Positions 2,330 to 61,691 of a stretch of DNA of 64,000 nucleotides are shown piece by piece. The position numbers and the translations under genes are program-made. Origin of the DNA: Candidatus Portnoybacteria bacterium (GTDB taxonomy: Bacteria; Patescibacteriota; Minisyncoccia; Portnoybacterales; GWB1-42-6). Location: assembly GCA_016208745.1 (NCBI GenBank), contig JACQXN010000020.1, positions 9,062-73,061 of the forward strand. The letters run 5' to 3'. The number at the start of each line of letters is the position of its first letter. Within the stretch, counting starts at the first letter, position 1. The notes under the pieces were generated by a model that was not told where the DNA came from, searched no databases, and saw nothing but the letters and a program-made list of their open reading frames with translations.

Positions 2330-2412
2330 GATTCCGGCTGGAGTTTACCCTCGATCTGGATTCCTGCTTTCGCAGGAATAACAGAGTCGGGGCGGGAATG
2401 ACAGAAAGGGGA
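2330..2412. mobile_element. Degenerate copy of the TGTCATTCCCGC-TIR MITE family
   Basis: ATCTGGATTCCTGCTTTCGCAGGAATAACAGAG...CGGGAATGACAGAA. The stem CTGC/GCAG replaces CCGC/GCGG, a compensatory change. Track ORF 2161..2514(-) overlaps it and is probably spurious. Confidence 0.45.
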
Positions 2413-5097: not shown

Positions 5098-8275
<3,178 letters not shown>

Positions 8276-9968: not shown

Positions 9969-9978
9969 TTTTCTTTAA

Positions 9979-10168
9979 GCCACTTTTTGTGCCGACAAAA
10001 AGTGGCCAAAAAACTCTCGCCACGCGTAAAAAATAAAGAAAAATCGGGCTCGCTTCGCTAAATTTGCTATGCCCAGCGCTTCGCGCTGACAACCACAACA
10101 CGCAAATTTTTAACGCTCGGCTCGTCTCGATTTTCTAGTTATTTTTTCGCGATGGCGAATAAATTTTA
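9979..10168 (+). repeat. Copy 1 of a ~190-bp structured intergenic repeat, glyQS to M16 peptidase
   Basis: A 5' hairpin CCACTTTTTGTGCCGACAAAAAGTGG, conserved blocks AAAAAACTCTCGCCA, ATCGGGCTCGCTTCGCTAAATTTGCTATGC and ACGCAAATTTTTAACGCTCGGCTCG, and a variable apical hairpin. Confidence 0.65.
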
Positions 10169-21365: not shown

Positions 21366-21488
21366 ATGGATTTGGAATATATGGATAAATATGACCCGAA
21401 AAAAGTAGAGCCCAAATGGCAGAAGTTTTGGGAGGAACATCCCGAGCTTTTTTCAGCCAAAGAAGATTCCAAGGGAAAAAAGGAATAG
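21366..21488 (+). other. leuS: N-terminal 40 codons of leuS, separated from the main ORF by an in-frame TAG at 21486-21488
   Basis: The translation MDLEYMDKYDPKKVEPKWQKFWEEHPELFSAKEDSKGKKE is followed by TAG, then ILDMFPYPSGDG. This is the canonical LeuS N-terminus (YNPKEIExKWQKxW...). Confidence 0.8.
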
Positions 21489-21491
21489 ATT

Positions 21492-23987
21492 TTGGATATG
21501 TTTCCATATCCTTCAGGCGATGGTTTGCATACCGGGCATGTTGAAAGCTATACCGCAACAGATATCATTTCCCGTTATTGGCGTATGAAGGGAAAAAATG
21601 TTTTGCATCCGCAGGGCTTTGACGCTTTTGGTTTGCCGGCAGAAAACTTTGCCATTAAAACAAAGATTCATCCTTCGCAAACCACTCAAAAAGCAATTGC
21701 CACTTTCAAGCAGCAAATGAATATGCTCGGATTTTCCTATGATTGGTCGCGGGAAGTTAATTCGTCTGACCCAAAATATTATAAGTGGACACAATGGTTT
21801 TTTCTTTTACTTTACAAAAATGGTCTGGCATATAGGGGTAAAGCAAAAGTTAATTGGTGCAATTCTTGTCAAACGGTTTTGGCCAACGAACAGGCCGAAG
21901 GCGGAGTTTGCGAGCGATGCGGCAGTCCGGTTGTGCAAAAGGATTTGGAGCAGTGGTTTTTTAAAATTACTGATCTTATTGAATCCAAGGGCGCTACTTC
22001 CGGATTGCTACAGGGTCTTGATAAAATTGACTGGCCAGAATCAACCAAAGCCGGCCAGCGCAACTGGATAGGGAAGTCAGAGGGAGCGCAGTTTAAAATG
22101 GAAATTATAACCAGTACCACCCCGGCCTCCGGCCACCCCTCCTCAGCTGAGGAGGGGACGAAAGGGGAGGTGTTGGATTATATTGAAGTTTTTACAACGC
22201 GATTGGACACGGTTTTTGGGATGACTTTTGCCCTTATCGCTCCGGAACATAAGATTATCAACGAGCTTAAATCGCAAATTGAGAATTGGAGTGAGGTTGA
22301 AAAATATATTGAAGAGGCCAGGAAAAAATCAGAGTTGCAAAGAATTTCTGAAACCAAAGAAAAAACAGGAGTGGAAATAAAAGGCGTAAAAGTTATTAAT
22401 CCTTTTACCGAGCAGGAAATTCCGGTTTTTATTTCCGACTTTGTTTTAGCGCATTATGGAACAGGCGCTGTTATGGCCGTTCCCGGACACGACCAGCGCG
22501 ATTACGAATTTGCTAAAAAATTTAACCTGCCGATTATTGAAGTGATAAAAAGCGAGGACAGAAAATCATCAATTGAAAAGGAGGCATTTATAGAAGATGG
22601 GGTATTGGCTAATTCGCGCGAATACGACAATACAACTTCTGCAAAAGCACGCGAAAAATTAATTGAGTGGATCCAGAAAAATAATCTGGGCGAAAAGAAA
22701 ATTAATTACAAAATGCGCGATTGGTTGGTTTCGCGGCAAAGATATTGGGGCGCGCCAATCCCGATAATTTATTGTCCGCAATGTTGTCATTCCCGCCCCG
22801 CATCGCAGTACGGGGCGAATCTAGAAAACGAAAAATCTGGATCCCGGATCAAGTCCGGGATGACAGAATTTGAAATTACAGAGATTGACGGAAAAAAATA
22901 TGCGATGGTCCCCATTCCAGAAAAAGATTTACCAGTGCTTTTGCCTGATGATGTTGATTTTATGCCGCATGGCGAATCCCCTCTTTCAAAATCAAAAAAA
23001 TTTCACGATGTTTCGTGTCCAAAATGCGGAGAGAAGGCGAAAAGGGAGTCAGACACAATGGACACATTTGTCTGTTCCTCCTGGTATCATTTCCGTTATG
23101 CTGATCCGAAAAACGAAAAAGAATTTGCCAGCAAAGAGAAAATAGAGAAATGGTTGCCAGTTGATTTGTATGTTGGGGGCGCGGAGCATACGGTTTTACA
23201 TCTTTTGTATTCCCGTTTTTTTACCAAGGCCTTGCATAATCTCGGCTACATTGATTTTGACGAGCCGTTTTTAAAAATGCGGCATCAAGGAATAATTTTG
23301 GCTGAAGACGGCCAAAAAATGTCAAAGTCGCTCGGCAATGTTATCAATCCTGATTCGGTGGTGGCACAATATGGCGCCGATGCCTTACGGATGTTTGAAA
23401 TGTTTATGGGGCCGCTGGAAGATGCAAAACCTTGGAATACTAAGGGGATCACCGGGATCTATAGGTTTTTGGAGAAAGCATGGAGGATAAGCTTAAAGTT
23501 TAAAGTTAAAAGTGAAAAGTCAGGGCTAGAAGTTAAAAGTTTAATACATAAAACAATTAAGAAAGTTAGTGAAGACATAGAAAAATTAAAATTTAATACA
23601 GCTATCAGCGCATTAATGGTTTTGCTAAATGAGATTGAAAAAAACGAAGAAATGCCCATCGAGGTTTTTGAAAAGTTTTTAATTCTCCTTTCGCCCTTTG
23701 CGCCGCATATCTCAGAGGAGATTTGGTCACAGTTAGGTCATGAAGAAAGTATTTTTAAAGAAAAATGGCCTGAATATAATCCCGAATTAATTAAAGAAGA
23801 GATAATTGAGTTGATCATTCAGATTAACGGCAAGGTGCGCGATACGATTTCTGTGGCGGTTGATATTTCGGAAACTGACGCTAAAAAACTCGCGCTTGAA
23901 AGCGAGAAGATAAAAAAATATCTTTTGGGCAGAGAGCCAAAGAAAATTATTTTTGTTAAAGAGAAACTAATAAATATTGTATTGTGA
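21492..23987 (+). CDS. leuS: Leucyl-tRNA synthetase main ORF (TTG or ATG restart just after the TAG). It carries at least three in-frame repeat insertions.
   Basis: Contains MFPYPSGDGLHTGH (HIGH), KMSKSLGN, the editing domain and a Zn knuckle CPQC...CPKCG. The insertions are at 22118-22175, 22785-22865 and 23492-23547. Confidence 0.9.
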   Translation: MDMFPYPSGDGLHTGHVESYTATDIISRYWRMKGKNVLHPQGFDAFGLPAENFAIKTKIHPSQTTQKAIATFKQQMNMLGFSYDWSREVNSSDPKYYKWTQWFFLLLYKNGLAYRGKAKVNWCNSCQTVLANEQAEGGVCERCGSPVVQKDLEQWFFKITDLIESKGATSGLLQGLDKIDWPESTKAGQRNWIGKSEGAQFKMEIITSTTPASGHPSSAEEGTKGEVLDYIEVFTTRLDTVFGMTFALIAPEHKIINELKSQIENWSEVEKYIEEARKKSELQRISETKEKTGVEIKGVKVINPFTEQEIPVFISDFVLAHYGTGAVMAVPGHDQRDYEFAKKFNLPIIEVIKSEDRKSSIEKEAFIEDGVLANSREYDNTTSAKAREKLIEWIQKNNLGEKKINYKMRDWLVSRQRYWGAPIPIIYCPQCCHSRPASQYGANLENEKSGSRIKSGMTEFEITEIDGKKYAMVPIPEKDLPVLLPDDVDFMPHGESPLSKSKKFHDVSCPKCGEKAKRESDTMDTFVCSSWYHFRYADPKNEKEFASKEKIEKWLPVDLYVGGAEHTVLHLLYSRFFTKALHNLGYIDFDEPFLKMRHQGIILAEDGQKMSKSLGNVINPDSVVAQYGADALRMFEMFMGPLEDAKPWNTKGITGIYRFLEKAWRISLKFKVKSEKSGLEVKSLIHKTIKKVSEDIEKLKFNTAISALMVLLNEIEKNEEMPIEVFEKFLILLSPFAPHISEEIWSQLGHEESIFKEKWPEYNPELIKEEIIELIIQINGKVRDTISVAVDISETDAKKLALESEKIKKYLLGREPKKIIFVKEKLINIVL
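22785..22865. mobile_element. TGTCATTCCCGC-TIR MITE inserted in-frame (81 bp, 27 codons) inside leuS
   Basis: TGTCATTCCCGCCCCGCATCGCAGTACGGGGCGAATCTAG...ATCTGGATCCCGGATCAAGTCCGGGATGACA encodes the extra segment between CPQCC and EFEITEIDGKKY in the LeuS Zn-knuckle region. Confidence 0.65.
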
Positions 23988-24954: not shown

Positions 24955-25150
24955 GCCGCTTTTTTGGCAGCAAAAAAGCGGCGGAAAAAACTGCGCCCAG
25001 AGCGTAAAAATTTAATAAAATCGGATTCGCCTCGCTAAATTTGCTATCCACAACGCCCCAACCTTACGGTCGGGGCCCCACCACAGCACGCAAATTTTAC
25101 GCTTGGCTCATCGCGATTTTATTAATAAATTTTTCGCTATAGGCGGTGAA
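24955..25150 (+). repeat. Copy 2 of the ~190-bp structured intergenic repeat, tsaC to PAP2
   Basis: Same block order. The 5' hairpin is CCGCTTTTTTGGCAGCAAAAAAGCGG, a different sequence with the same fold. Confidence 0.65.
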
Positions 25151-31483: not shown

Positions 31484-31530
31484 AAAACAGGGCCTCGATT
31501 AATTTTAAAATCGAGGCCTTTTATTTTTCT
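31484..31530. terminator. Bidirectional intrinsic terminator, GGCCTCGAT-N10-ATCGAGGCC plus a T-run
   Basis: Perfect 9-bp stem at 31491-31518 with an A-run before and a T-run after. It lies between the convergent NUDIX gene and topA. Confidence 0.6.
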
Positions 31531-33557
31531 TCTTTTTGGATAAAGCCGCATTCTTTGTTTGAGCATTTAATTCGGCCTTTTTTATCAGAGATCAACAGGG
31601 AGCCGCATTTGGGGCAGGTTTCGCCGGTTGGCTTGTCCCAGAGAGCGAATTTGCAGTCGGGATAATTTGAGCAAGCATAGAAAATTTTTCCCTTTCTGGT
31701 TCTTTTTTCATTGATTTTTCCCTGTTTACATTCCGGGCAAGTCACGCCGGTTGAATTGGCAATGTTTTCAGTATAACGGCATTCAGGAAAACCGGAGCAA
31801 GCATAGAATTTTCCAAAACGGCTGGTCCTAATTACTAGCGGCTTGCCGCATTGGGGGCAAGTTTTGTCTGTCGGCTCAACAGGCGCTTTTTGTTTTTTTA
31901 CTTCTTCGTATTTTTGGTCTAAGTTTTCTTTAAAGGGATCATAAAATTCTTTAATAACTGGTTGCCATTTTATTTGGCCTTCAGCTATTTTGTCTAAATC
32001 CTCTTCCATATGCGCGGTGAATTTTAAATCAACAATTACGGGAAAATGTTCAACTAATAAATCGTTAACCGTAAAACCAATATCAGTCGGGAAAAATTTT
32101 CGCGCCTCATCTTTTTGGATATAATTTCGGTCTTGGATGGTGGAAATAATCGGCGCATAGGTTGATGGCCGGCCAATGCCGTCTTCTTCCAAAGCCTTAA
32201 TCAGTGTTGCTTCTGAGTATCTTGGCGGTGGTTGGGTGAAATGCTGGCTAGAAATTAATTTTATCAATTCCAAAATTTCTTTTTCTTGGAGCGACGGCAA
32301 ATCCATTTCTTGAAATTTTATCGGATAGACCCTTAGAAAGCCATCAAATTTCATCATTGAACCATTGGCGCGGAAAATGTGATTATTCGCTTCAATATCA
32401 ATACTAGTTGAATCAAAAATTGCGCTTGACATCTGGGAAGCCAAAAATCGCGACCAGATAAGTTGATAGAGTTTTGCTTGGCTTGCATCTAGTTTAAGAT
32501 TCTCCGGCTCAGCTTCCGGAGAAGTTGGCCTAATTGCTTCGTGCGCTTCCTGCGCGCCTTTTGATTTTGTTTTGTATGTTTTAGAAAACCCCGGCCAATA
32601 AGTAGCCCCAAATTTTTCTAAAATAAATTTTTTAGCAGCGTCCAAAGCTATTTGGGAAATATTTAAAGAATCGGTTCGGTGATAAGTTATATGACCTTCT
32701 TCATAGAGTCTTTGCGCCAAACTCATTGTCATCTTGGCCGAAAAATGGAATTTTTGCCAAGCAGCCTGTTGAAGAGTGCTGGTGGTAAATGGCGGCAGGG
32801 GATTTCTCTTCGTTTCTTTTTTCTCTATTTTTGCAATCTGATATTTTGCACCTTCAAGATCTTTTAAAATTTTATCGGCGTTTTCCTTAGTTCCAATATC
32901 AAGCTTGCCGATTGGTATTTCTCCTCTTTTGATAAGGGTCGCGGTGAATTCTTTTTCCGACTCAGCTTTTTTAAGCAGCGCTTCTATGCTCCAGTATTCT
33001 TCCGGTTTAAAATTTTGGATTTCCCGTTCTCTCTCAACAATTAAGCGCACAGCCACTGATTGCACTCGTCCAGCTGAAAGGCCCTTGGCTATTTTACGCC
33101 ATAAAAAAGGCGAAAGCTGATAGCCAACAATTCTATCTAAAATTCTGCGCGCTTGCTGGGAATCAACCAAATCCATATCTATTCTTCGGGGATTTTTGAG
33201 CGCCTCTTGAATCGCACTTTTGGTTATTTCATGAAAAACAATTCTGTCTGATTTTTCGGCATCCAGTTTTAAGGCCTGCGTTAAATGCCAGGCAATGGCT
33301 TCGCCTTCGCGGTCTTCGTCAGTTGCCAGAATAACTTTGTCTGCTTTCTCTAAAGATTTTTTTATCGGCGTCAACTTTTTTCTGGATAGCATTGGCACAA
33401 CATATTTTGGCTCAAAATTATTTTCAATATCAATGCCGAGCTCCTTTTTTGGCAGATCGCGGATATGGCCAAAAGAAGACACGACCGAATATTCCTTGTT
33501 CAGGAATTTTTGGATTGTTCGGGCTTTAGTTGGGGATTCAACGATGATAAGATCCAT
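31521..33557 (-). CDS. topA: DNA topoisomerase I with C-terminal zinc ribbons
   Basis: TOPRIM N-terminus MDLIIVESPTKARTIQKFL, an active-site Tyr region, and four C4 zinc-finger repeats. Confidence 0.95.
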   Translation of the reverse strand: MDLIIVESPTKARTIQKFLNKEYSVVSSFGHIRDLPKKELGIDIENNFEPKYVVPMLSRKKLTPIKKSLEKADKVILATDEDREGEAIAWHLTQALKLDAEKSDRIVFHEITKSAIQEALKNPRRIDMDLVDSQQARRILDRIVGYQLSPFLWRKIAKGLSAGRVQSVAVRLIVEREREIQNFKPEEYWSIEALLKKAESEKEFTATLIKRGEIPIGKLDIGTKENADKILKDLEGAKYQIAKIEKKETKRNPLPPFTTSTLQQAAWQKFHFSAKMTMSLAQRLYEEGHITYHRTDSLNISQIALDAAKKFILEKFGATYWPGFSKTYKTKSKGAQEAHEAIRPTSPEAEPENLKLDASQAKLYQLIWSRFLASQMSSAIFDSTSIDIEANNHIFRANGSMMKFDGFLRVYPIKFQEMDLPSLQEKEILELIKLISSQHFTQPPPRYSEATLIKALEEDGIGRPSTYAPIISTIQDRNYIQKDEARKFFPTDIGFTVNDLLVEHFPVIVDLKFTAHMEEDLDKIAEGQIKWQPVIKEFYDPFKENLDQKYEEVKKQKAPVEPTDKTCPQCGKPLVIRTSRFGKFYACSGFPECRYTENIANSTGVTCPECKQGKINEKRTRKGKIFYACSNYPDCKFALWDKPTGETCPKCGSLLISDKKGRIKCSNKECGFIQKEEK

Positions 33558-33683
33558 AAATAGTTAGAAGGTTTAAGTTAAAAGTTCAAAGTCAAAGTTG
33601 AAAGTTTAAAATTTATTGCGCAAAGCGCGATGCCAAAATTTTTCATTTTCAACTTTTAATTTTTAACTTAGTTCTTTCGAGAT

Positions 33684-34778
33684 CTATCTTGAAAGAACGT
33701 AATTCATTCCTCCTAAATTTCTAATCTTTCCTTTTATCTCCATCAAGGCAATCGTGGCGTTAATTGTCGCGGTGTCTATTTTAGTTTCAATTACGATTTT
33801 GTCAATATGCGTTGGCTCGTCTCCGAGTATTTCTAAAATTTTTGCCTCCTCTTCGTTGTCAGGCAGAATTTGTCGAATTTCAATCTGCTCAGTTAGCGCT
33901 TTCAGGTTTAATTCTTCTAAAATATCATTGGTGCCAAGAACTAGCTTTGCCCCCATTTTTATTAAGTTATTTGGCCCAATTGAAGTTTGAGAATATATGG
34001 GGCCGGGGATAGCAAAGACTTCGCGGTTTTGTTCTAAAGCATGCTTGGCAGTAATTAAGGCGCCGGATTTTTCTTTTGCTTCAATAACTAATGTGCCAAG
34101 CGATAAACCACTGATAATGCGATTTCGGGCATGAAAATGGTGTTTCAAAGCCGGCGTGCCGGGCGGATATTCTGAAATCACCGCGCCGTTTTCTGAAATT
34201 TGCTGGGCTAATCGGCGATTTGATGGCGGATAAACGCTCTGTTCGTCAATGCCAGAGCCGACAACTGCGATTGTCCGTTTTTTATCCTGCAGGGCCGCCA
34301 TATGCGCCAGTGAATCAATTCCGCGCGCCAGGCCCGAAACAATAGTTAAACTAGCTTGGCTTATTTGATTAGCTAAATGCGAAGCAACCTGTTGGCCATA
34401 GAGAGTCGGTATTCTTGTTCCGACTATTGCCAGCGCCCTTTCGTCTTGAGGCATAATTTTCCCTCTAACATATAATAGCGGAGGCGGGTCGTAGATTTCT
34501 TTTAAAAGCGAGGGATAGTTTTCGTCTGAAATTGTAATAACATCAATGTTGTGCGCTTTTAATTCTTCAAGTTTTTTATCCGGATTAATAGTTATCCTTC
34601 GGCTGCAAAATTCTTTGATAATATTTTCATCAAGCCCGGCGTTTAAAAGCTCCAATTCTTCTGCTTTCCAGGCGTTTTCCAAATTTCCAAAATAATTCAA
34701 TAGCCGCTTGATTCTTTGCGGCCCGATTTTTTCGTGGAATTGGTTGAAGGCGATAAAGTATTTTGTTTGGTCGCTCAT
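33684..34778 (-). CDS. dprA: DNA processing protein DprA/Smf
   Basis: Rossmann-like core ALAIVGTRIPTLYGQQVASHLANQISQASLTIVSGLARGIDSLAH. Confidence 0.9.
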   Translation of the reverse strand: MSDQTKYFIAFNQFHEKIGPQRIKRLLNYFGNLENAWKAEELELLNAGLDENIIKEFCSRRITINPDKKLEELKAHNIDVITISDENYPSLLKEIYDPPPLLYVRGKIMPQDERALAIVGTRIPTLYGQQVASHLANQISQASLTIVSGLARGIDSLAHMAALQDKKRTIAVVGSGIDEQSVYPPSNRRLAQQISENGAVISEYPPGTPALKHHFHARNRIISGLSLGTLVIEAKEKSGALITAKHALEQNREVFAIPGPIYSQTSIGPNNLIKMGAKLVLGTNDILEELNLKALTEQIEIRQILPDNEEEAKILEILGDEPTHIDKIVIETKIDTATINATIALMEIKGKIRNLGGMNYVLSR

Positions 34779-34783
34779 CCTTT

Positions 34784-34856
34784 TGTCATTCTGGGCCCCT
34801 ACCCGTCCGGCAGACGGGAACCCGCAATCTAGATTCCCGTTTTCACGGGAATGACA
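34784..34856. mobile_element. MITE of the TGTCATTCCCGC-TIR family (REP-like hairpin pair)
   Basis: It starts TGTCATTC and ends GGGAATGACA, with internal hairpins CCCGTCCGGCAGACGGG and TTCCCGTTTTCACGGGAA. Related copies are at 2330-2412, 22785-22865 and 52780-52849. Confidence 0.55.
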
Positions 34857-35577: not shown

Positions 35578-37695
35578 TTATACGTTCTCATAATTTCTAA
35601 CGAGGTCCACCGCTTCATTCAGCATCTGGATATATAGATTAAGCCCCACGGCGTTGATTTGGCCTGATTGTTCGCGGCCCAAGATATTGCCTGCCCCGCG
35701 GATTTCCAAATCGCGCAGAGCGATTTGATAGCCAGAACCAAGCGCTTGCGCTTCTTTTAGCGCGTCTAATCTTTGTTGCGCAATGTCGGTCAGATTTTTT
35801 TCATTATACAAAAAATAGGCATAGGCCTGTTTATCAGAGCGCCCAATTCTGCCTCGCAATTGATAGCTTTGGGCCAGGCCAAGTTTTGTCGCGTTTGCAA
35901 CAATTAGAGTATTAACATTGGGAAAATCCAAGCCGTTTTCAATAATTGTTGTGGCCACTAGAATATCAATCTTTTTTTCGCCAAAATCATCCATCACTTT
36001 TATCAATTGTTTTTCGTTCATGCGGCCGTGAGCAATAGCAATATAAATTTTCCCCCCCTCCTTTTTAAAGCCTGCCTGTCCGGTAGGCAGGGAGGGGTGG
36101 GGTGGATTTTTTGAATTATCTCCATCCGTAGAATAAATCCCTCCCAGCCTCCCTTTAAAAAGGGAGGAGTTTTTTAGTAATTTCTCAATCTGCTTCTTTG
36201 CCAGTTCAATTGTTTCAATCCGATTATGCAGATAATAAATTTGTCCGCCTCGCTTTAATTCAAATTCAATCGCTTTTTTAATTGTTTTTGGTGAATAGGG
36301 TTCAATAAATGTTTTAACTGCCAATCGGCCGGGCGGCGCGGTTTGAATTAAACTGATATCGCGCAAGCCGGTTAAAGATAAATGCATTGTTCTTGGGATA
36401 GGCGTGGCGCTCAAACTTAAAATATCTATGTTGGCGCGCATTTCTTTAAATCGCTCTTTTTGTTTAACGCCAAATCTTTGTTCCTCATCTATTATAACTA
36501 GTCCAAGACTTGGAAACTCTACGTCTTTTTGAATGAGACGATGGGTGCCAATAACAATATCAGTCTGGCTGTCTTTAATTTGTTTTATGGTTTGAGCCTG
36601 ATTCTTTTTTGATTCCAATCTTGAAAGCAGCGCGATATTAATTGGAAATTTTTTAAGCCGGTTTAAAAAATTATGATAATGCTGGTGGGCTAAAATGGTT
36701 GTTGGCGTGATTAAAGCTACCTGTTTGCCAGCAGTTACTGCTTTAAAAGCCGCGCGCAAAGCGATCTCTGTTTTGCCAAAACCAACATCCCCGCAAATTA
36801 ATCTGTCCATTGGTTTTTCCGATTCCATATCTTTTTTAACGTCTCTCATAGCAGACAATTGATCTTCGGTTTCAATATATAAAAAAGAATCTTCCAGCTC
36901 TTTTTGCAAAGCGTCATCTGGCGGAAATTTAAAACCAGAAACTGCTGCGCGCTTGGCATAAATCTCCAATAATTCTTTAGCCAGATTCAAGGCGCTTTCT
37001 TTGATTTTTCTTTTGGTTTTATACCAGAGCGTTCCGCCAAGGCGATGCACAATCGGCGTTTCAAAGCCAATGTATCTGGTTAATTTTTCTTCCAGTTCAA
37101 GCGGCACATAAAGCCGGTCATTTTTGGCGTATTCTAAAACGAAATATTTTTCTTGACTCTCGGGCGTCGGCGAGTTAAAAGAAAGCTCGCCACCTAGTTC
37201 TTTGGCAAAGCCCTTAAAAATGCCAATGCCATGGTCCAGATGAACCAGATATTCATTCGGTTTTAAATTTGCCAGAAGTTGCGAAGGCGCTTGTTTTTTA
37301 AGGGCTTTCTTGATTGTTTCTGGCTTTTCGTCGATTTTAATTTCAAGAGAAAAAATTTCAGCCAGCTCATTGCCGGAAAATTCAAGGCGCAAGGCCGAAT
37401 CCATATTTATCGGAAAAATATCTAAGATCCCGCCGCGTTGGGAGAGCTCGCCGGGTCTAGCCAATGTTTGCACGCGCTCATAACCAAAATTAGTCAGTTT
37501 TCTTAATAGCTCAAATAGATTTATTCTCTGATTTTTTTCTAAAAAGATCGTATTATCCTTCCACCAGATCTGGGTTTTAGCTACTTCTTCTATTTTTTTT
37601 TGGTTTTCGGAGAACCAAAAGATATCCCGATCTAGGAAATACGGCGACAAGCTTGCAATTAGAATTTTAGTTGGATTTTTACTTTCTGATATCAT
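35578..37695 (-). CDS. mfd: Transcription-repair coupling factor Mfd, compact 705-aa form, carrying an in-frame palindromic-repeat insertion
   Basis: UvrB-homology region (ARPGELSQRGGILDIFP), SF2 helicase motifs (GDVGFGKTEIALRA, DEEQRFGV) and the TRG motif. The insertion ...KGRLGGIYSTDGDNSKNPPHPSLPTGQAGFKKEGG... is encoded by a CCTCC-family element at about 36050-36172. Confidence 0.8.
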   Translation of the reverse strand: MISESKNPTKILIASLSPYFLDRDIFWFSENQKKIEEVAKTQIWWKDNTIFLEKNQRINLFELLRKLTNFGYERVQTLARPGELSQRGGILDIFPINMDSALRLEFSGNELAEIFSLEIKIDEKPETIKKALKKQAPSQLLANLKPNEYLVHLDHGIGIFKGFAKELGGELSFNSPTPESQEKYFVLEYAKNDRLYVPLELEEKLTRYIGFETPIVHRLGGTLWYKTKRKIKESALNLAKELLEIYAKRAAVSGFKFPPDDALQKELEDSFLYIETEDQLSAMRDVKKDMESEKPMDRLICGDVGFGKTEIALRAAFKAVTAGKQVALITPTTILAHQHYHNFLNRLKKFPINIALLSRLESKKNQAQTIKQIKDSQTDIVIGTHRLIQKDVEFPSLGLVIIDEEQRFGVKQKERFKEMRANIDILSLSATPIPRTMHLSLTGLRDISLIQTAPPGRLAVKTFIEPYSPKTIKKAIEFELKRGGQIYYLHNRIETIELAKKQIEKLLKNSSLFKGRLGGIYSTDGDNSKNPPHPSLPTGQAGFKKEGGKIYIAIAHGRMNEKQLIKVMDDFGEKKIDILVATTIIENGLDFPNVNTLIVANATKLGLAQSYQLRGRIGRSDKQAYAYFLYNEKNLTDIAQQRLDALKEAQALGSGYQIALRDLEIRGAGNILGREQSGQINAVGLNLYIQMLNEAVDLVRNYENV

Positions 37696-42682: not shown

Positions 42683-43231
42683 ATGAAAACCTTTGGACTT
42701 TTTGTGTGGGAAATATTTAAGATAGTGATTATTTCTTTGGCGATCATTATCCCGATTCGTTATTTTTTGGTTCAGCCGTTTTTCGTCAAAGGCGCCTCAA
42801 TGGAGCCAAATTTTGAGGATAATCAGTATCTGCTAATTGATGAGATATCGTATAGGTTTAGAGAGCCGCAGAGAGGAGAAGTGGTAGTTTTTAAATACCC
42901 GCTTAAGCCATCGGAATTTTATATCAAAAGAATTATTGCTTTGCCCGGAGAATCAGTCCAGATAAAAGATAGCAAGATTTCTGTTTACAACAAAGAACAT
43001 CCGGATGGTTTTTCCCTAGATGAATCCAGCTACCTTGGGACTATTCCTATGTCTGACGAGCCCAAAATTACCTTAAAGGAAAATGAGTTTTTCGTTTTGG
43101 GCGACAATCGCCAAGCCAGTTATGATTCAAGGCGCTGGGGGCCTTTGCCCCGCGAAGATTTAATCGGGCGAGTTTGGATAAGAGTTTGGCCACTAGCCCA
43201 AGCGCAGGCGATCGGAGCGCCGGCATATTAA
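42683..43231 (+). CDS. lepB: Signal peptidase I
   Basis: Catalytic Ser box GASMEPNF, the Lys box YIKRIIALPGE, and GDNRQASYDSRRWG. Confidence 0.9.
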   Translation: MKTFGLFVWEIFKIVIISLAIIIPIRYFLVQPFFVKGASMEPNFEDNQYLLIDEISYRFREPQRGEVVVFKYPLKPSEFYIKRIIALPGESVQIKDSKISVYNKEHPDGFSLDESSYLGTIPMSDEPKITLKENEFFVLGDNRQASYDSRRWGPLPREDLIGRVWIRVWPLAQAQAIGAPAY

Positions 43232-46159: not shown

Positions 46160-46200
46160 CACTTTTATTTTTCGGCATATCCCTTAGTGAATTTTTTAAA

Positions 46201-46390
46201 CCTACTTTTTGTACCGACAAAAAGTAGGCAAAAAACTCTCGCCAAGCATAAAATTTTGATAAAATCAGACTCGGCTCGCTAAAATTGCTATGCACCCCGC
46301 ATTCTGCGGGGCCCAAAGGCACAGCACGCAATTTTTTAACGCTCGTCTTGCCTCGATTTTATTGCAAAATTTTTGCTATGGCGAAGAGGG
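46201..46390 (+). repeat. Copy 3 of the ~190-bp structured intergenic repeat, yqeY to ybeY
   Basis: Same block order. Hairpin CCTACTTTTTGTACCGACAAAAAGTAGG. The long-stem pairing AAAATTGC/GCAATTTT differs from AAATTTGC/GCAAATTT in copies 1 and 2 in a compensatory way. Confidence 0.65.
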
Positions 46391-52779: not shown

Positions 52780-52849
52780 TGTCATTCCCGCGAAAGCGGG
52801 AATCCAGGCTCTTTTTTGAATCTAGATTCCCGCTTTCGCGGGAATGACA
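52780..52849. mobile_element. MITE of the TGTCATTCCCGC-TIR family (inverted pair of REP-like hairpins)
   Basis: TGTCATTCCCGCGAAAGCGGGAATCCAG...ATCTAGATTCCCGCTTTCGCGGGAATGACA. The two halves are reverse complements of each other. Confidence 0.6.
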
Positions 52850-56548: not shown

Positions 56549-57412
56549 ATGATACAAAAATCTATGAAAAAAGTTTTCGTTACCTTAACAGTTTTATCGT
56601 TAATGGTATTGACGGCGGCTCCTGCTTTGGCTGGTCATCGTCCTTCAAGACACCAAATGCCAGCTAATGACAGCGATATCACAATTAATATTGATAATGA
56701 GGCGACTGTTACCAACATCGTTTCTGTCGGAGCTTACACCGGCGGCAATACCTCTAAAGGCGATGACGGCGGCGACGGCGGCGACAGCGGCGAAGCAGAA
56801 GTTGAAGGAGCTAAAGGCACTGCCACTTCCGGCGACGGCGGCGACGGCGGCGACGGCGGCAATGGCGGCACAATCACCTCTGGTGATGCAGATGCGAGCG
56901 CCTATATTGCTAACGTAGTTAATACCAATTTGACTTCAGTTGATGCTTGCGGTTGCGAAGAAGGAGAAGAGGAAGATGGCTGTGGATGTGAAGATCCTTG
57001 CGGCTGTCAGTCTCGCTGCGGCGGCTCTCAACAAGGGGATGACTGTGGTTGCATTGATGACATCAAAGTTGACATAGAAAACAAAAAGACTGATGTTAAC
57101 AACAATGCAGGAGTTATGGCCGACACAGGTTTAAATGAATCCAAAGGCGATGACGGCGGCAATGGCGGCGACAGCGGCGAAGCAGAAGTTGAAGACCAAG
57201 ACAAAGACAGAGACAACAGATGGCATCGCGGCGGCTGCAATACTTGCGGCAGTGATTCAGAAGACAGCGAATGCTGCCCTGAAGCCACTTCAGGTGATGC
57301 AGGCGATGGCGGCGACGGCGGCAATGGTGGTGAAATCACCAGCGGCGCAGCTGCGGCTACAGCCAAAGTATTTAATCTGGTTAACACCACTGTTACCAGA
57401 GTTCGCAGATAA
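56549..57412 (+). CDS. Secreted Gly/Asp/Cys-rich repeat protein
   Basis: Signal peptide, two internal repeats (SKGDDGGxGGDSGEAEVE...TSGDAxxxAxxxNxVNTxxT), and a CGC-rich metal-binding-like segment. The antisense ORFs are spurious. Confidence 0.6.
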   Translation: MIQKSMKKVFVTLTVLSLMVLTAAPALAGHRPSRHQMPANDSDITINIDNEATVTNIVSVGAYTGGNTSKGDDGGDGGDSGEAEVEGAKGTATSGDGGDGGDGGNGGTITSGDADASAYIANVVNTNLTSVDACGCEEGEEEDGCGCEDPCGCQSRCGGSQQGDDCGCIDDIKVDIENKKTDVNNNAGVMADTGLNESKGDDGGNGGDSGEAEVEDQDKDRDNRWHRGGCNTCGSDSEDSECCPEATSGDAGDGGDGGNGGEITSGAAAATAKVFNLVNTTVTRVRR

Positions 57413-58346: not shown

Positions 58347-58544
58347 ATTCACTGAATCATAAAGCGGGCATTTTTTGCCTCCCCTCCTCAGATGAGGAGG
58401 GGAATTAAAGGGGTGGTGGTGACCTTAATAATTCAACACCCCACCCTACCCCTCCCCTCATCTGAGGGGAGGGAAGACGCCTATTTTATAATTCAATGTT
58501 AAGCCAATATTTTAATCTAACTCCGGAGGGAAGTTATATCGGTT

Positions 58545-61349: not shown

Positions 61350-61691
61350 TTTTTTGAGGCTGAGTTTGTCTAATAATAACTTGATTAGCCACAAATCCTC
61401 CCTCGCCTCGCTTAAGCTCCGGCGAAGCGGGCCAGCCCTCCCCCGTATCAAGTACGGGGCAAGCTCTAAAGGGAGGGAGCAGGGATTATTCCCCTCCTTT
61501 AGGAGGGGTTAGGGGAGATTTAGATTGGTGTAAGAGTTAATTAATTTCAGGAACCATCGCAGATTACATTATTATTCATTAAACCCTAGGCTATTATTTG
61601 TTTGACAGGATTCCTTGAGGCGGTAAAATGATAAATAAACATCGCTTTTTTTGCAGCGGGCGAGTTTTAATAATTATTAAAACTATAAAAA

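What the first reader, a model, noticed from the sequence alone, without database searches (positions are those of the whole stretch)
22785..22865. TGTCATTCCCGC-TIR MITE (81 bp) inserted in-frame within the leuS zinc-knuckle region
The element begins TGTCATTCCCGC and ends CCGGGATGACA. It contains the hairpins CCCCGCATCGCAGTACGGGG and TCCCGGATCAAGTCCGGGA. The first hairpin is a variant of the intergenic hairpin CCCCGTATCAAGTACGGGG at 61436. Its length of 27 codons preserves the frame and adds ...SRPASQYGANLENEKSGSRIKSGMT... between the CPQCC and CPKCG zinc ligands. Family members in intergenic DNA are at 2330-2412, 34784-34856 and 52780-52849. The TIRs are a GGAATGACA / TGTCATTCC pair.
Basis: seen in the sequence. 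Interest (0 to 1): 0.7.

Follow-up and report, generated by a model that had tools for sequence, protein, structure and literature searches.

The report
Hairpin repeat pair inside leucyl-tRNA synthetase
An 81-base pair of hairpin repeats from a known, very widespread bacterial repeat family sits in-frame in a flexible surface loop of the leucyl-tRNA synthetase gene of a candidate-phyla-radiation bacterium, which is a new host and an unusually recurrent site for an already described phenomenon.

Summary
Window 22785-22865 is an 81-nt, stop-free, in-frame insert in leuS of a Candidatus Portnoybacteria MAG. It lies directly after the second Cys of the first CxxC of the ZN-2 zinc knuckle. Of 121 close LeuRS sequences, 96 lack any insert there.

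It is not a TIR/TSD transposon-type MITE. It is an inverted, tags-outside (HH) heterodimer of CGTC/TGTC-tagged REP hairpins (Di Nocera 2013). These equal the NTS/SRM repeats recognised by Ssn GIY-YIG ssDNA nucleases (Chenal 2025). The published SRM pattern hits four units in the window against 0.10 expected.

In-frame copies of this superfamily are already known, including in tRNA synthetases and as Rickettsia RPE-4/-6. The encoded 27 aa are predicted disordered, so the insert is most likely a tolerated passenger.

Three points are new:
- The host phylum (CPR) is new for this repeat family.
- The same junctions recur in at least four other CPR LeuRS lineages, one only about 45% identical.
- The repeat nucleotides are conserved well beyond synonymous-site expectation.

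Caveats: this leuS copy has a premature TAG at a conserved Tyr. No Ssn or transposase gene was found in the window.

The parts
21366..23987 (+). leuS (bacterial-type leucyl-tRNA synthetase). It is interrupted by an in-frame TAG at 21486-21488. The long ORF as listed starts at TTG 21492.
   Evidence: P0001, annotated Candidatus Portnoybacteria leucine--tRNA ligase, is 100% identical. T. thermophilus LeuRS 1H3N matches at E 1e-208. The N-terminal 40 codons lie in the same frame upstream of the TAG.
22785..22865 (.). 81-nt head-to-head (tags outside) heterodimer of CGTC/TGTC-tagged REP hairpins. It is in frame and encodes residues 432-458, CHSRPASQYGANLENEKSGSRIKSGMT.
   Evidence: It is absent from 96 of 121 homologues.
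22785..22824 (+). Left REP unit. Tag TGTC is 22785-22788. Arms are ATTCCCGCCCCG (22789-22800, with a 2-nt bulge) and CGGGGCGAAT (22811-22820). The loop is enlarged to 10 nt (22801-22810). The tail is CTAG (22821-22824).
   Evidence: Read from the sequence. Its first 16 nt equal the intergenic copy at 2403 on the minus strand. It does not fit the SRM pattern because of the long loop.
22825..22836 (.). 12-nt A-rich spacer (AAAACGAAAAAT) between the two units.
   Evidence: Spacer length and sequence differ among the leuS copies of other lineages.
22837..22865 (-). Right REP unit, read on the minus strand as TGTC|ATCCCGGA|CTTGA|TCCGGGAT|CCAG. It has an 8-bp stem, a 5-nt loop and a CCA-type tail, so it is CGTC-2-like.
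   Evidence: it matches the published SRM pattern. The identical 26-mer occurs in more than 120 loci across many phyla.
22866..22904 (+). 13-codon 'long-form' extension EFEITEIDGKKYA. It is not part of the repeat. It forms a beta-hairpin segment shared by a subset of CPR LeuRS.
   Evidence: The AF2 model shows strands 462-465 and 468-474 with pLDDT above 80. The motif xxTxIDGxEYA is present in all carriers and in many other divergent LeuRS.
22773..22784 (+). First zinc knuckle CPQC (C428, C431), aligned to T. thermophilus C439/C442.
   Evidence: Query residue 431 aligns to Tt C442, and the alignment resumes at query 472 = Tt V444. C428 is invariant and C431 nearly invariant among 70 homologues.
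23016..23027 (+). Second zinc knuckle CPKC (C509, C512).
52780..52849 (.). Canonical intergenic homodimer of the same family: TGTCATTCCCGCGAAAGCGGGAATCCAG, a 14-nt spacer, then its inverse.
   Evidence: Inverted repeat I15 has 29-nt arms, 97% complementary. Both units match the Neisseria NTS consensus with at most 1 mismatch. It lies between ORFs.
34784..34856 (.). Intergenic dimer with a canonical right unit and a degenerate left unit. It starts 6 nt upstream of the dprA start codon.
2330..2403 (-). Degenerate composite copy. It has a TGTCATTCCCGCCCCG fragment followed by a TGTT-tagged unit, ATTCCTGC GAAA GCAGGAAT CCAG.

Best explanation
The 81 nt are an inverted pair (tags outside, CCA-type tails inside) of CGTC/TGTC-tagged repetitive extragenic palindromes. 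This is the repeat superfamily also described as Neisseria NTS/dRS3, 'Ssn-related motifs' and Rickettsia RPE-4/-6.

A copy became inserted into the variable loop that follows the first CxxC of the LeuRS ZN-2 zinc knuckle. It persists for four reasons:
- Its length is a multiple of three.
- The reading phase in use (TGT CAT TCC ...) is stop-free.
- The encoded Ser/Gly/Asn/Glu/Lys-rich 27-residue peptide is a disordered surface loop.
- All four zinc ligands and the flanking beta-strands are left intact.

Shown here: family identity, insertion status, frame, position in the protein, and predicted disorder.

Inferred:
- The peptide is a functionally neutral passenger.
- The units spread, or are kept homogeneous, through single-stranded-DNA hairpin recognition by a trans-acting enzyme. 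The Ssn GIY-YIG nuclease family is the only enzyme shown, in other bacteria, to recognise them.
- Alternatively, they are kept homogeneous by gene conversion from other genomic copies.
For: Family identity.
- Tag, AT-initiated 8-bp stem, 4-5-nt loop, CCA tail and HH dimer layout match the CGTC REP definition.
- The published SRM pattern hits the leuS right unit and three intergenic units, against 0.10 hits expected. The NTS consensus with at most 1 mismatch hits 52780 and 52849.
- The right-unit 26-mer is found in more than 120 loci from Alpha- and Betaproteobacteria, Binatia, Omnitrophota, Firmicutes and CPR. Its variable 8th base pair is complementary in 126 of 128 copies.
- A Saccharimonadales intergenic copy (L054) is the same heterodimer type.

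Insertion status.
- 96 of 121 close homologues and T. thermophilus LeuRS have CxxCG-VPVPE with nothing in between.

Tolerance.
- In the AF2 model, residues 435-458 have pLDDT below 50 and are coil. They are flanked by confident strands.
- The zinc ligands are conserved.
- Intact full-length LeuRS ORFs with the same insert exist in other lineages.

Precedent.
- In-frame CGTC dimers of 20-30 aa are reported in IleRS and GlyRS-beta of E. litoralis and in R. conorii proteins.
Against: - Mobility is not demonstrated. I found no filled/empty polymorphism among close strains, and I saw no target-site duplication on inspecting the flanks.
- No transposase, RAYT or GIY-YIG gene was found in the 64-kb window.
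- The left unit departs from the family definition, with a 10-nt loop and a bulged stem.
- Identical junctions occur in LeuRS lineages that do not cluster in an NJ tree and are 45-70% identical. Codon identity inside the repeat is 14/14, 14/15 and 14/15, against about 50% elsewhere. A simple 'one recent neutral insertion' does not explain these two facts.
- This particular leuS copy has a premature TAG. Whether the insert is tolerated in an active enzyme therefore rests on the other lineages.
Confidence: 0.8

Rival explanations
1. The repeat pair in leuS is kept by selection at the nucleotide level. For example, it could act as a functional Ssn-type ssDNA cleavage or recognition site that limits replacement of this gene during natural transformation. 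It could also act as an mRNA structure. Under this reading it is not a neutral passenger.
For: Same-amino-acid codons are identical in 14/14, 14/15 and 14/15 cases inside the repeat, against about 50% in the rest of the gene (P = 5e-5 to 9e-4). The codons used are minor ones in this genome. The innermost stem pair shows A-T in the window, G-C in L002 and an A/C mismatch in L001, which could be a compensatory path. The nucleotides that matter most for SsnA are retained: GTC upstream and C just after the palindrome. The window encodes DprA, with a dimer 6 nt upstream of it.
Against: The same pattern is expected from recent independent insertion or from gene conversion by other genomic copies. 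The left unit, spacer and junction (an extra TGT in the window) differ between lineages. No Ssn gene was seen in the window. In Neisseria only 2% of NTS lie in genes.
Confidence: 0.12
2. It is a classical MITE: a deletion derivative of an insertion sequence, moved by a DDE transposase through its terminal inverted repeats, leaving target-site duplications.
For: The termini TGTCATTCC and GGGATGACA are inverted (8/9). Several copies are dispersed in intergenic DNA.
Against: I saw no direct repeats flanking any of the four copies on inspecting the sequences. Each half is a self-contained hairpin with an unpaired tag and tail, found elsewhere as singletons and in mixed pairs. No IS or transposase was found among 50 ORFs. 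The literature assigns these units to REPs that lack a dedicated transposase.
Confidence: 0.04
3. This leuS copy is a decaying pseudogene, so the in-frame state of the insert has no biological meaning here.
For: An in-frame TAG at 21486-21488 replaces a Tyr that is present in the full-length homologues inspected. TAG is an ordinary stop in this window, ending 13 of 41 long ORFs.
Against: The remaining 832 codons contain no stop or frameshift, and catalytic and zinc motifs are intact. That fits a sequencing or consensus error, or a very recent mutation, better than decay. The same insert sits in intact genes of other lineages.
Confidence: 0.15
4. It is a native, lineage-specific LeuRS peptide that only resembles the repeats by chance.
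For: The insert lies next to a conserved 'long-form' beta-hairpin extension that is a real part of some CPR LeuRS.
Against: The left half of the L001 leuS copy is identical over 29 nt to the window's intergenic unit at 52780 and to the Saccharimonadales intergenic copy L054. The right half is identical to a 26-mer found across phyla. The peptide is predicted disordered.
Confidence: 0.02

Closest known systems
CGTC-tagged REPs, families CGTC-1 and CGTC-2 (Di Nocera, De Gregorio & Rocco 2013, PMC3733652)
   Same: The shared features are an unpaired CGTC tag (commonly TGTC), an 8-bp stem starting AT, a 4- or 5-nt loop and a CCA-type tail. The predominant organisation is HH dimers, often heterodimers. 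In-frame dimers encoding 20-30 aa are known, including in tRNA synthetases.
   Different: The host phylum is new: that survey covered 5 phyla and not CPR. The left unit here has an enlarged 10-nt loop and a bulged stem. The spacer is only 12 nt. The same protein site is occupied in several divergent lineages, whereas that paper found same-site insertion only for Xanthomonas recB.
NTS / Ssn-related motifs and the Ssn GIY-YIG ssDNA nucleases (Chenal et al. 2025, PMC11893778)
   Same: The units at 52780 and 52849 fit the Neisseria NTS consensus with at most 1 mismatch. The leuS right unit and three others fit the SRM pattern. The positions reported as critical for SsnA binding and cleavage are present.
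   Different: No Ssn (cd10448) gene was seen in the window, and none could be searched for in the rest of the genome. NTS are rarely intragenic in Neisseria (2%). A role in transformation is untested here.
Rickettsia palindromic elements (RPE). RPE-4 and RPE-6 are equated with CGTC-4 and CGTC-1. In-frame RPE insertion in Rickettsia genes is from my own knowledge of Ogata et al. 2000.
   Same: These are selfish palindromic repeats inserted in frame into housekeeping proteins at surface-exposed positions. They are tolerated without destroying the fold.
   Different: The hosts here are CPR bacteria, known from environmental metagenomes, rather than obligate intracellular alphaproteobacteria. The element is a two-hairpin REP dimer of 81 nt, not the longer RPE-1 type. 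Sequence-level membership in a named RPE family was not tested.
REPIN/RAYT systems (GTAG-tagged REP doublets moved by IS200/IS605-like tyrosine transposases)
   Same: Both have two inverted REP hairpins separated by a short spacer, forming a larger hairpin. Both are presumed to act through single-stranded DNA.
   Different: The tag is (C/T)GTC, not GTAG. No RAYT (Y1_Tnp) gene was found in the window. The literature reports no dedicated transposase for CGTC REPs.
Bacterial MITEs that overlap genes (for example Coxiella QMITE1/2, PMC5896051)
   Same: They are small non-autonomous repeats that alter coding sequences.
   Different: QMITEs have TIRs and direct repeats, are 150-400 bp long, and mostly overlap gene ends. 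This element is 81 nt, shows no direct repeats, and lies in the middle of the gene.

Membership tests
CGTC-tagged REP superfamily (Di Nocera 2013) | Unpaired terminal tetranucleotide CGTC (TGTC or CCTC variants accepted) | tested here: met
   TGTC is at 22785-22788. Its inverse GACA is at 22862-22865. The same holds at 34856, 52780 and 52849. L002 has CGTC.
CGTC-tagged REP superfamily (Di Nocera 2013) | Stem of 8-9 bp beginning with complementary A and T residues, and a loop of 4-5 nt | tested here: met
   The right unit is ATCCCGGA / CTTGA / TCCGGGAT. Intergenic units are ATTCCCGC / GAAA / GCGGGAAT. Exception: the leuS left unit has a 10-nt loop and a 2-nt bulge.
CGTC-tagged REP superfamily (Di Nocera 2013) | Short unpaired tail fitting CCA | tested here: met
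   The tail is CCAG on the right unit and at 52780. It is the variant CTAG on the leuS left unit and at 34856 and 52849.
CGTC-tagged REP superfamily (Di Nocera 2013) | Mostly arranged as HH dimers (tags outside), homo- or heterodimers, with a spacer | tested here: met
   All four window copies and the leuS copies of L001, L002 and L054 have tags outside. The spacer here is 12 nt, shorter than the usual 20-100.
CGTC-tagged REP superfamily (Di Nocera 2013) | Repeated and dispersed in the genome above chance | tested here: met
   Four SRM-pattern units occur in 64 kb against 0.10 expected. TGTCATTCC occurs 5 times against 0.43 expected. The whole-genome count is not available.
NTS/SRM-Ssn system (Chenal 2025) | Sequence fits the SRM search pattern HGTCWYN(0-2)YYVSBRHN(0-5)WNVSBRGN(0-2)RNCYNB | tested here: met
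   The leuS right unit, 34856(-), 52780(+) and 52849(-) match. The leuS left unit does not.
NTS/SRM-Ssn system (Chenal 2025) | A single-domain GIY-YIG (cd10448) ssn gene in the genome, typically flanked by the repeats | tested here: inconclusive
   No GIY-YIG protein was found among 50 Pfam-scanned ORFs or in a motif scan of all small ORFs of the window. Only 64 kb of the genome is available.
NTS/SRM-Ssn system (Chenal 2025) | Strand-specific cleavage of the single-stranded repeat by the cognate Ssn | not testable with these tools
   This needs biochemistry.
Classical MITE | Target-site duplication flanking the element | tested here: not met
   Inspection of the flanks: CAATGT|...|GAATTT (leuS), TGTTATT|...|AGACTG (52780), ATCCTTT|...|GAATAG (34784). 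I saw no direct repeats.
Classical MITE | Termini related to an autonomous IS with a transposase | tested here: inconclusive
   No transposase was found in the window. The rest of the genome was not seen.
REPIN/RAYT (GTAG REPs) | GTAG tag next to the hairpin, and an associated RAYT gene | tested here: not met
   The tag is TGTC. No Y1 transposase was found in the window.
Bacterial LeuRS (host gene) | Class Ia catalytic core, CP1 editing domain, ZN-2 CxxC...CxxC, and anticodon-binding domain | tested here: met
   Pfam domains are PF00133, PF13603 and PF08264. The alignment to T. thermophilus LeuRS has E 1e-208. The four Cys are conserved. A premature TAG at codon 41 is the exception.

The most novel reading that the evidence does not exclude
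The loop after the first CxxC of CPR LeuRS is not just a permissive site. It could be a specifically targeted or selectively maintained landing site for Ssn-type REP dimers. Under this reading the repeat is preserved at the DNA level across lineages whose LeuRS proteins have diverged to about 45% identity. It could act as an ssDNA nuclease site governing recombination of an essential gene during natural transformation. It could also act as a recombination seed through which larger modules entered the same loop, such as the roughly 190-aa alpha/beta-hydrolase inserts seen at this exact position in other CPR LeuRS.
Probability: 0.12. Interest if true: 0.7.

Novelty: new member of a known kind. 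Interest (0 to 1): 0.38.

Why it matters
The phenomenon itself, selfish palindromic repeats inserted in frame into housekeeping proteins, has been known since the Rickettsia RPE work. It was catalogued for CGTC REPs in 2013, so the core finding is ordinary.

Three things add modest value:
- It places the CGTC/NTS-SRM repeat superfamily in candidate-phyla-radiation bacteria. Their genomes are very small, so they could narrow the search for whatever spreads these repeats. The spreading agent has been an open question; Ssn nucleases are the current candidate.
- It shows a single LeuRS loop colonised again and again. REP dimers, two other repeat types and whole enzyme domains all occur there. This makes the loop a natural map of where a class I synthetase tolerates insertions.
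- The nucleotide-level conservation of the repeat across deeply diverged LeuRS genes is a concrete, testable hint. Either conversion or targeting is ongoing, or the DNA or RNA hairpin itself is under selection.

Tried and rejected
- A protein search with only the 57-aa insert region gave nothing significant against 5.8 billion sequences.
- A search with the 126-aa region returned only short LeuRS fragments and no new carriers.
- TAG recoding was rejected. TAG ends 13 of 41 long ORFs in the window.
- A recurrent N-terminal stop in relatives was rejected. P0027 merely has a mis-called start and is intact.
- Rfam has no family for the element. The only hit was a sub-threshold chance match.
- I looked for target-site duplications by inspecting the flanks of the four copies and saw none.
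- RAYT, transposase and GIY-YIG genes were not found in the window. One GIY-YIG ORF next to a REP was seen in an unrelated locus, L086.
- A single clean clade of carriers was not recovered. The NJ tree is star-like and the carriers are scattered. Neighbour-joining on sequences about 70% identical is too weak to decide between one gain with losses and several gains.
- Literature searches for CPR or Patescibacteria combined with REP or MITE elements in genes found nothing relevant.
Full report
**What is there.**
Window 22785-22865 reads TGTCATTCCCGCCCCGCATCGCAGTACGGGGCGAATCTAGAAAACGAAAAATCTGGATCCCGGATCAAGTCCGGGATGACA. It is 81 nt long and lies in frame inside the 831-codon ORF 21492-23987. That ORF is 100% identical to a protein annotated as leucine--tRNA ligase of a Candidatus Portnoybacteria MAG. 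It aligns to Thermus thermophilus LeuRS with E = 1e-208.

The stretch folds much better than shuffled sequence, as DNA (z = -4.7) and as RNA (z = -4.7). The terminal 9-mer TGTCATTCC occurs five times in the window against 0.43 expected. Small corrections concern the right terminus, the position of the hairpin near 61441, and the degenerate state of the copy near 2330-2403.

**It is an insertion.**
I aligned the protein with its 120 best homologues. Apart from the identical P0001, these are 61-71% identical where identity was reported. The aligned stretch from IYCxxC to KDLPV has the minimal 18-residue form...IYCxxCGxVPVPEKDLPV, in 96 of 121 sequences.

In the alignment to T. thermophilus LeuRS, the first matched block ends at query residue 431 (= Tt C442). 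The next block starts at query 472 (= Tt V444). So 40 residues are extra: 27 encoded by the element (432-458) and 13 more, EFEITEIDGKKYA. From my own knowledge of the Thermus structure, C439/C442/C484/C487 are the ligands of the ZN-2 module. The corresponding C428, C431, C509 and C512 are invariant or nearly so among 70 homologues.

**What the element is.**
Each half is a self-contained hairpin with an unpaired tag and tail.
- On the minus strand the right half reads TGTC|ATCCCGGA|CTTGA|TCCGGGAT|CCAG.
- The intergenic copies read TGTC|ATTCCCGC|GAAA|GCGGGAAT|CCAG or CTAG.

This matches the published definition of CGTC-tagged REPs. That definition is a terminal CGTC often changed to TGTC, an 8-9-bp stem starting with A and T, a 4- or 5-nt loop, a CCA-like tail, and a predominance of HH dimers with the tags outside.

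The same units were later described as the Neisseria NTS (CGTCATTCCCGCGMAVGCGGGAATCYRG) and, more generally, as Ssn-related motifs. They are bound and cut as single-stranded DNA by the small GIY-YIG nuclease SsnA. I applied the authors' own patterns to the window:
- The SRM pattern hits four units (22865-, 34856-, 52780+, 52849-) against 0.10 expected.
- The NTS consensus with one mismatch hits both units of the 52780-52849 dimer.

The leuS left unit is atypical. It has the tag, the AT start and the tail, but its loop is enlarged to 10 nt and its stem is bulged, so it fails the SRM pattern. Its first 16 nt are shared with the intergenic copy at 2403 on the minus strand.

These came from Alpha- and Betaproteobacteria, Binatia, Omnitrophota, Zixibacteria, Firmicutes MAGs, Legionellales, Rickettsiales and two CPR lineages. 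Two positions were left free in that search; they form the innermost base pair. They are Watson-Crick complementary in 126 of 128 copies. One Saccharimonadales intergenic copy is the same left-plus-right heterodimer as in leuS.

I saw no target-site duplication on inspecting the flanks of any copy. No transposase, RAYT or GIY-YIG gene was found among 50 ORFs scanned with Pfam or in a motif scan of the small ORFs. Rfam has no matching family. The label 'TIR MITE' is therefore not the best description.

**Why it is tolerated.**
Frame +1 of the element is stop-free, and only two of the six frames are open. The peptide CHSRPASQYGANLENEKSGSRIKSGMT is rich in Ser, Gly, Asn, Glu and Lys.

In an AlphaFold2 model built on 70 homologues (mean pLDDT 76), residues 435-458 have pLDDT below 50 and no secondary structure. 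The strands on either side, 425-428 and 462-474, are modelled; the 461-480 blocks have mean pLDDT 83-87, while 421-430 averages only 53.

In-frame CGTC REP dimers of 20-30 residues are already documented. Examples include isoleucyl- and glycyl-tRNA synthetases of Erythrobacter litoralis and many Rickettsia conorii proteins, where RPE-4 and RPE-6 are CGTC-4 and CGTC-1. The most likely reading is a tolerated passenger in a surface loop.

**What goes beyond a routine case.**

*1. The same site is used repeatedly.* Two homologues at 68-69% identity, P0009 and P0021, carry the same kind of dimer with the same junctions. The sequence is TGT CAT TCC CGC ... GGG ATG AC(A/G), followed by six codons and IDGKEYA.

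A metagenome scan for the right junction found those two lineages again in independent assemblies. It also found a third lineage (L129, L130, L132) whose LeuRS is only about 45% identical to the window's. That lineage has a composite form.

A search of representatives clustered at 50% identity added P0241. It also showed many divergent CPR LeuRS with a 'long-form' loop. In these, CxxC is followed by 10-60 variable, often repeat-like residues, and then by a conserved xDFxxIDGxEYAxxPVPE hairpin.

Other homologues carry different inserts at the same point:
- an AT-rich repeat;
- a GC hairpin;
- a roughly 190-residue alpha/beta-hydrolase domain.

*2. The carriers do not cluster.* They are scattered in a neighbour-joining tree built without the insert columns. 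That tree is star-like and weak.

*3. The repeat is conserved at the nucleotide level.* Among the window, L001 and L002, codons for identical amino acids are the same in about 50% of cases across the gene. Inside the repeat they are the same in 14/14, 14/15 and 14/15 cases (P between 5e-5 and 9e-4). The codons concerned are minor ones in this genome.

Three explanations fit these facts:
- independent or repeated insertion into a preferred site;
- ongoing gene conversion from other genomic copies;
- selection on the hairpin itself.

The window's junction has one extra TGT codon (CPQCC against CPNC and CSYC). The left units and spacers also differ between lineages. This argues against simple inheritance of one frozen copy. 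I cannot decide among the three explanations with the data available.

**Caveats.**
- This leuS copy has an in-frame TAG at 21486-21488. The full-length homologues inspected have Tyr there, in ...KKYILDMFPYPSG.
- TAG is a normal stop in the window, so this is a nonsense mutation, a polymorphism or a consensus error. The remaining 832 codons are intact.
- Whether an Ssn gene exists in this genome could not be tested.

**Comparison and verdict.**
The element is a member of the CGTC REP / NTS-SRM superfamily. It works like the in-frame RPE and REP insertions already described. It is not a GTAG REPIN and not a TSD-forming MITE. The novelty lies in the host phylum and in the recurrent, nucleotide-conserved occupation of one LeuRS loop. 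I file it as a new member of a known kind, of moderate interest.

Noticed in passing
window 21486-21488: There is an in-frame TAG in leuS at a position where the full-length homologues inspected have Tyr (..KKYILDMFPYPSG). The NCBI model of P0001 therefore starts at MFPYPSG. TAG is otherwise an ordinary stop in the window.
   Followed up: partly
window 22126-22162: A second in-frame hairpin repeat of a different family (CCCCTCCTCAGCTGAGGAGGGG, with copies near 58371 and 62709) lies in the LeuRS editing-domain loop. It encodes ..TPASGHPSSAEEGTKGE.. and has AF2 pLDDT below 50 at residues 212-223. P0003, P0005, P0006 and P0055 share it. 73 of 121 homologues have no insert at this site.
   Followed up: partly
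window 23496-23552: An AAGTTAAAAGT-type repeat, similar to copies near 33568 (about 10 nt past the topoisomerase I ORF 31521-33557) and 43233 (overlapping the last bases of the signal-peptidase ORF 42683-43231), lies in the variable linker of the LeuRS anticodon-binding domain (KFKVKSEKSGLEVKS). Homologues carry many different repeat-like peptides at this position.
   Followed up: no
window 7626-7717 (tgt, 7052-8275) and 36129-36175 (mfd-like, 35578-37695, minus strand): Two more housekeeping genes contain in-frame copies of another double-hairpin repeat family (..AAATCCACCCC..CCTTTAAAAAGGAGGG..). The encoded peptides are [29 protein letters not shown] and SSLFKGRLGGIYS. In-frame repeat colonisation appears common in this genome.
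   Followed up: partly
window 34784-34856 and dprA 33684-34778 (minus strand): An NTS/SRM-type dimer starts 6 nt upstream of the start codon of dprA, the ssDNA-processing protein of natural transformation. In Neisseria these repeats modulate transformation. The link here may be a coincidence.
   Followed up: no
homologues P0003, P0041, P0046, P0054, P0058, P0063, P0070, P0076; also P0025, P0047, P0070, P0106: Some CPR LeuRS carry an alpha/beta-hydrolase domain of roughly 190 aa (PF06821/PF12697) inserted at exactly the ZN-2 loop site. Others carry a domain of roughly 210 aa (with PF01725 precomputed on P0025, P0070 and P0106) in the editing-domain loop. NUDIX fusions also occur.
   Followed up: no
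L129, L130, L132 (metagenome contigs), leuS loop: This is a composite element. An outer TGTCATTCCCGTTCCGCATC ... CTCGGGATGACA encloses a complete inner dimer with a TGTT tag. The same 'fragment plus TGTT-tagged unit' layout is seen at window 2372-2403 on the minus strand. This suggests a recurring composite subfamily or nested insertion.
   Followed up: partly
window 9970-10159, 25006-25134, 46192-46385: A module of roughly 150-190 nt is repeated three times at 73-84% identity in intergenic DNA. It contains a ...ACTTTTTGTNCCGACAAAAAGT... hairpin. It matches no Rfam family at gathering threshold.
   Followed up: no
window 56740-57340: There are GGCGAC/GGCGGC-rich tandem 9-nt periodic repeats inside ORF 56549-57412, which has no Pfam hit. 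They probably encode a Gly/Asp-rich repetitive surface protein.
   Followed up: no
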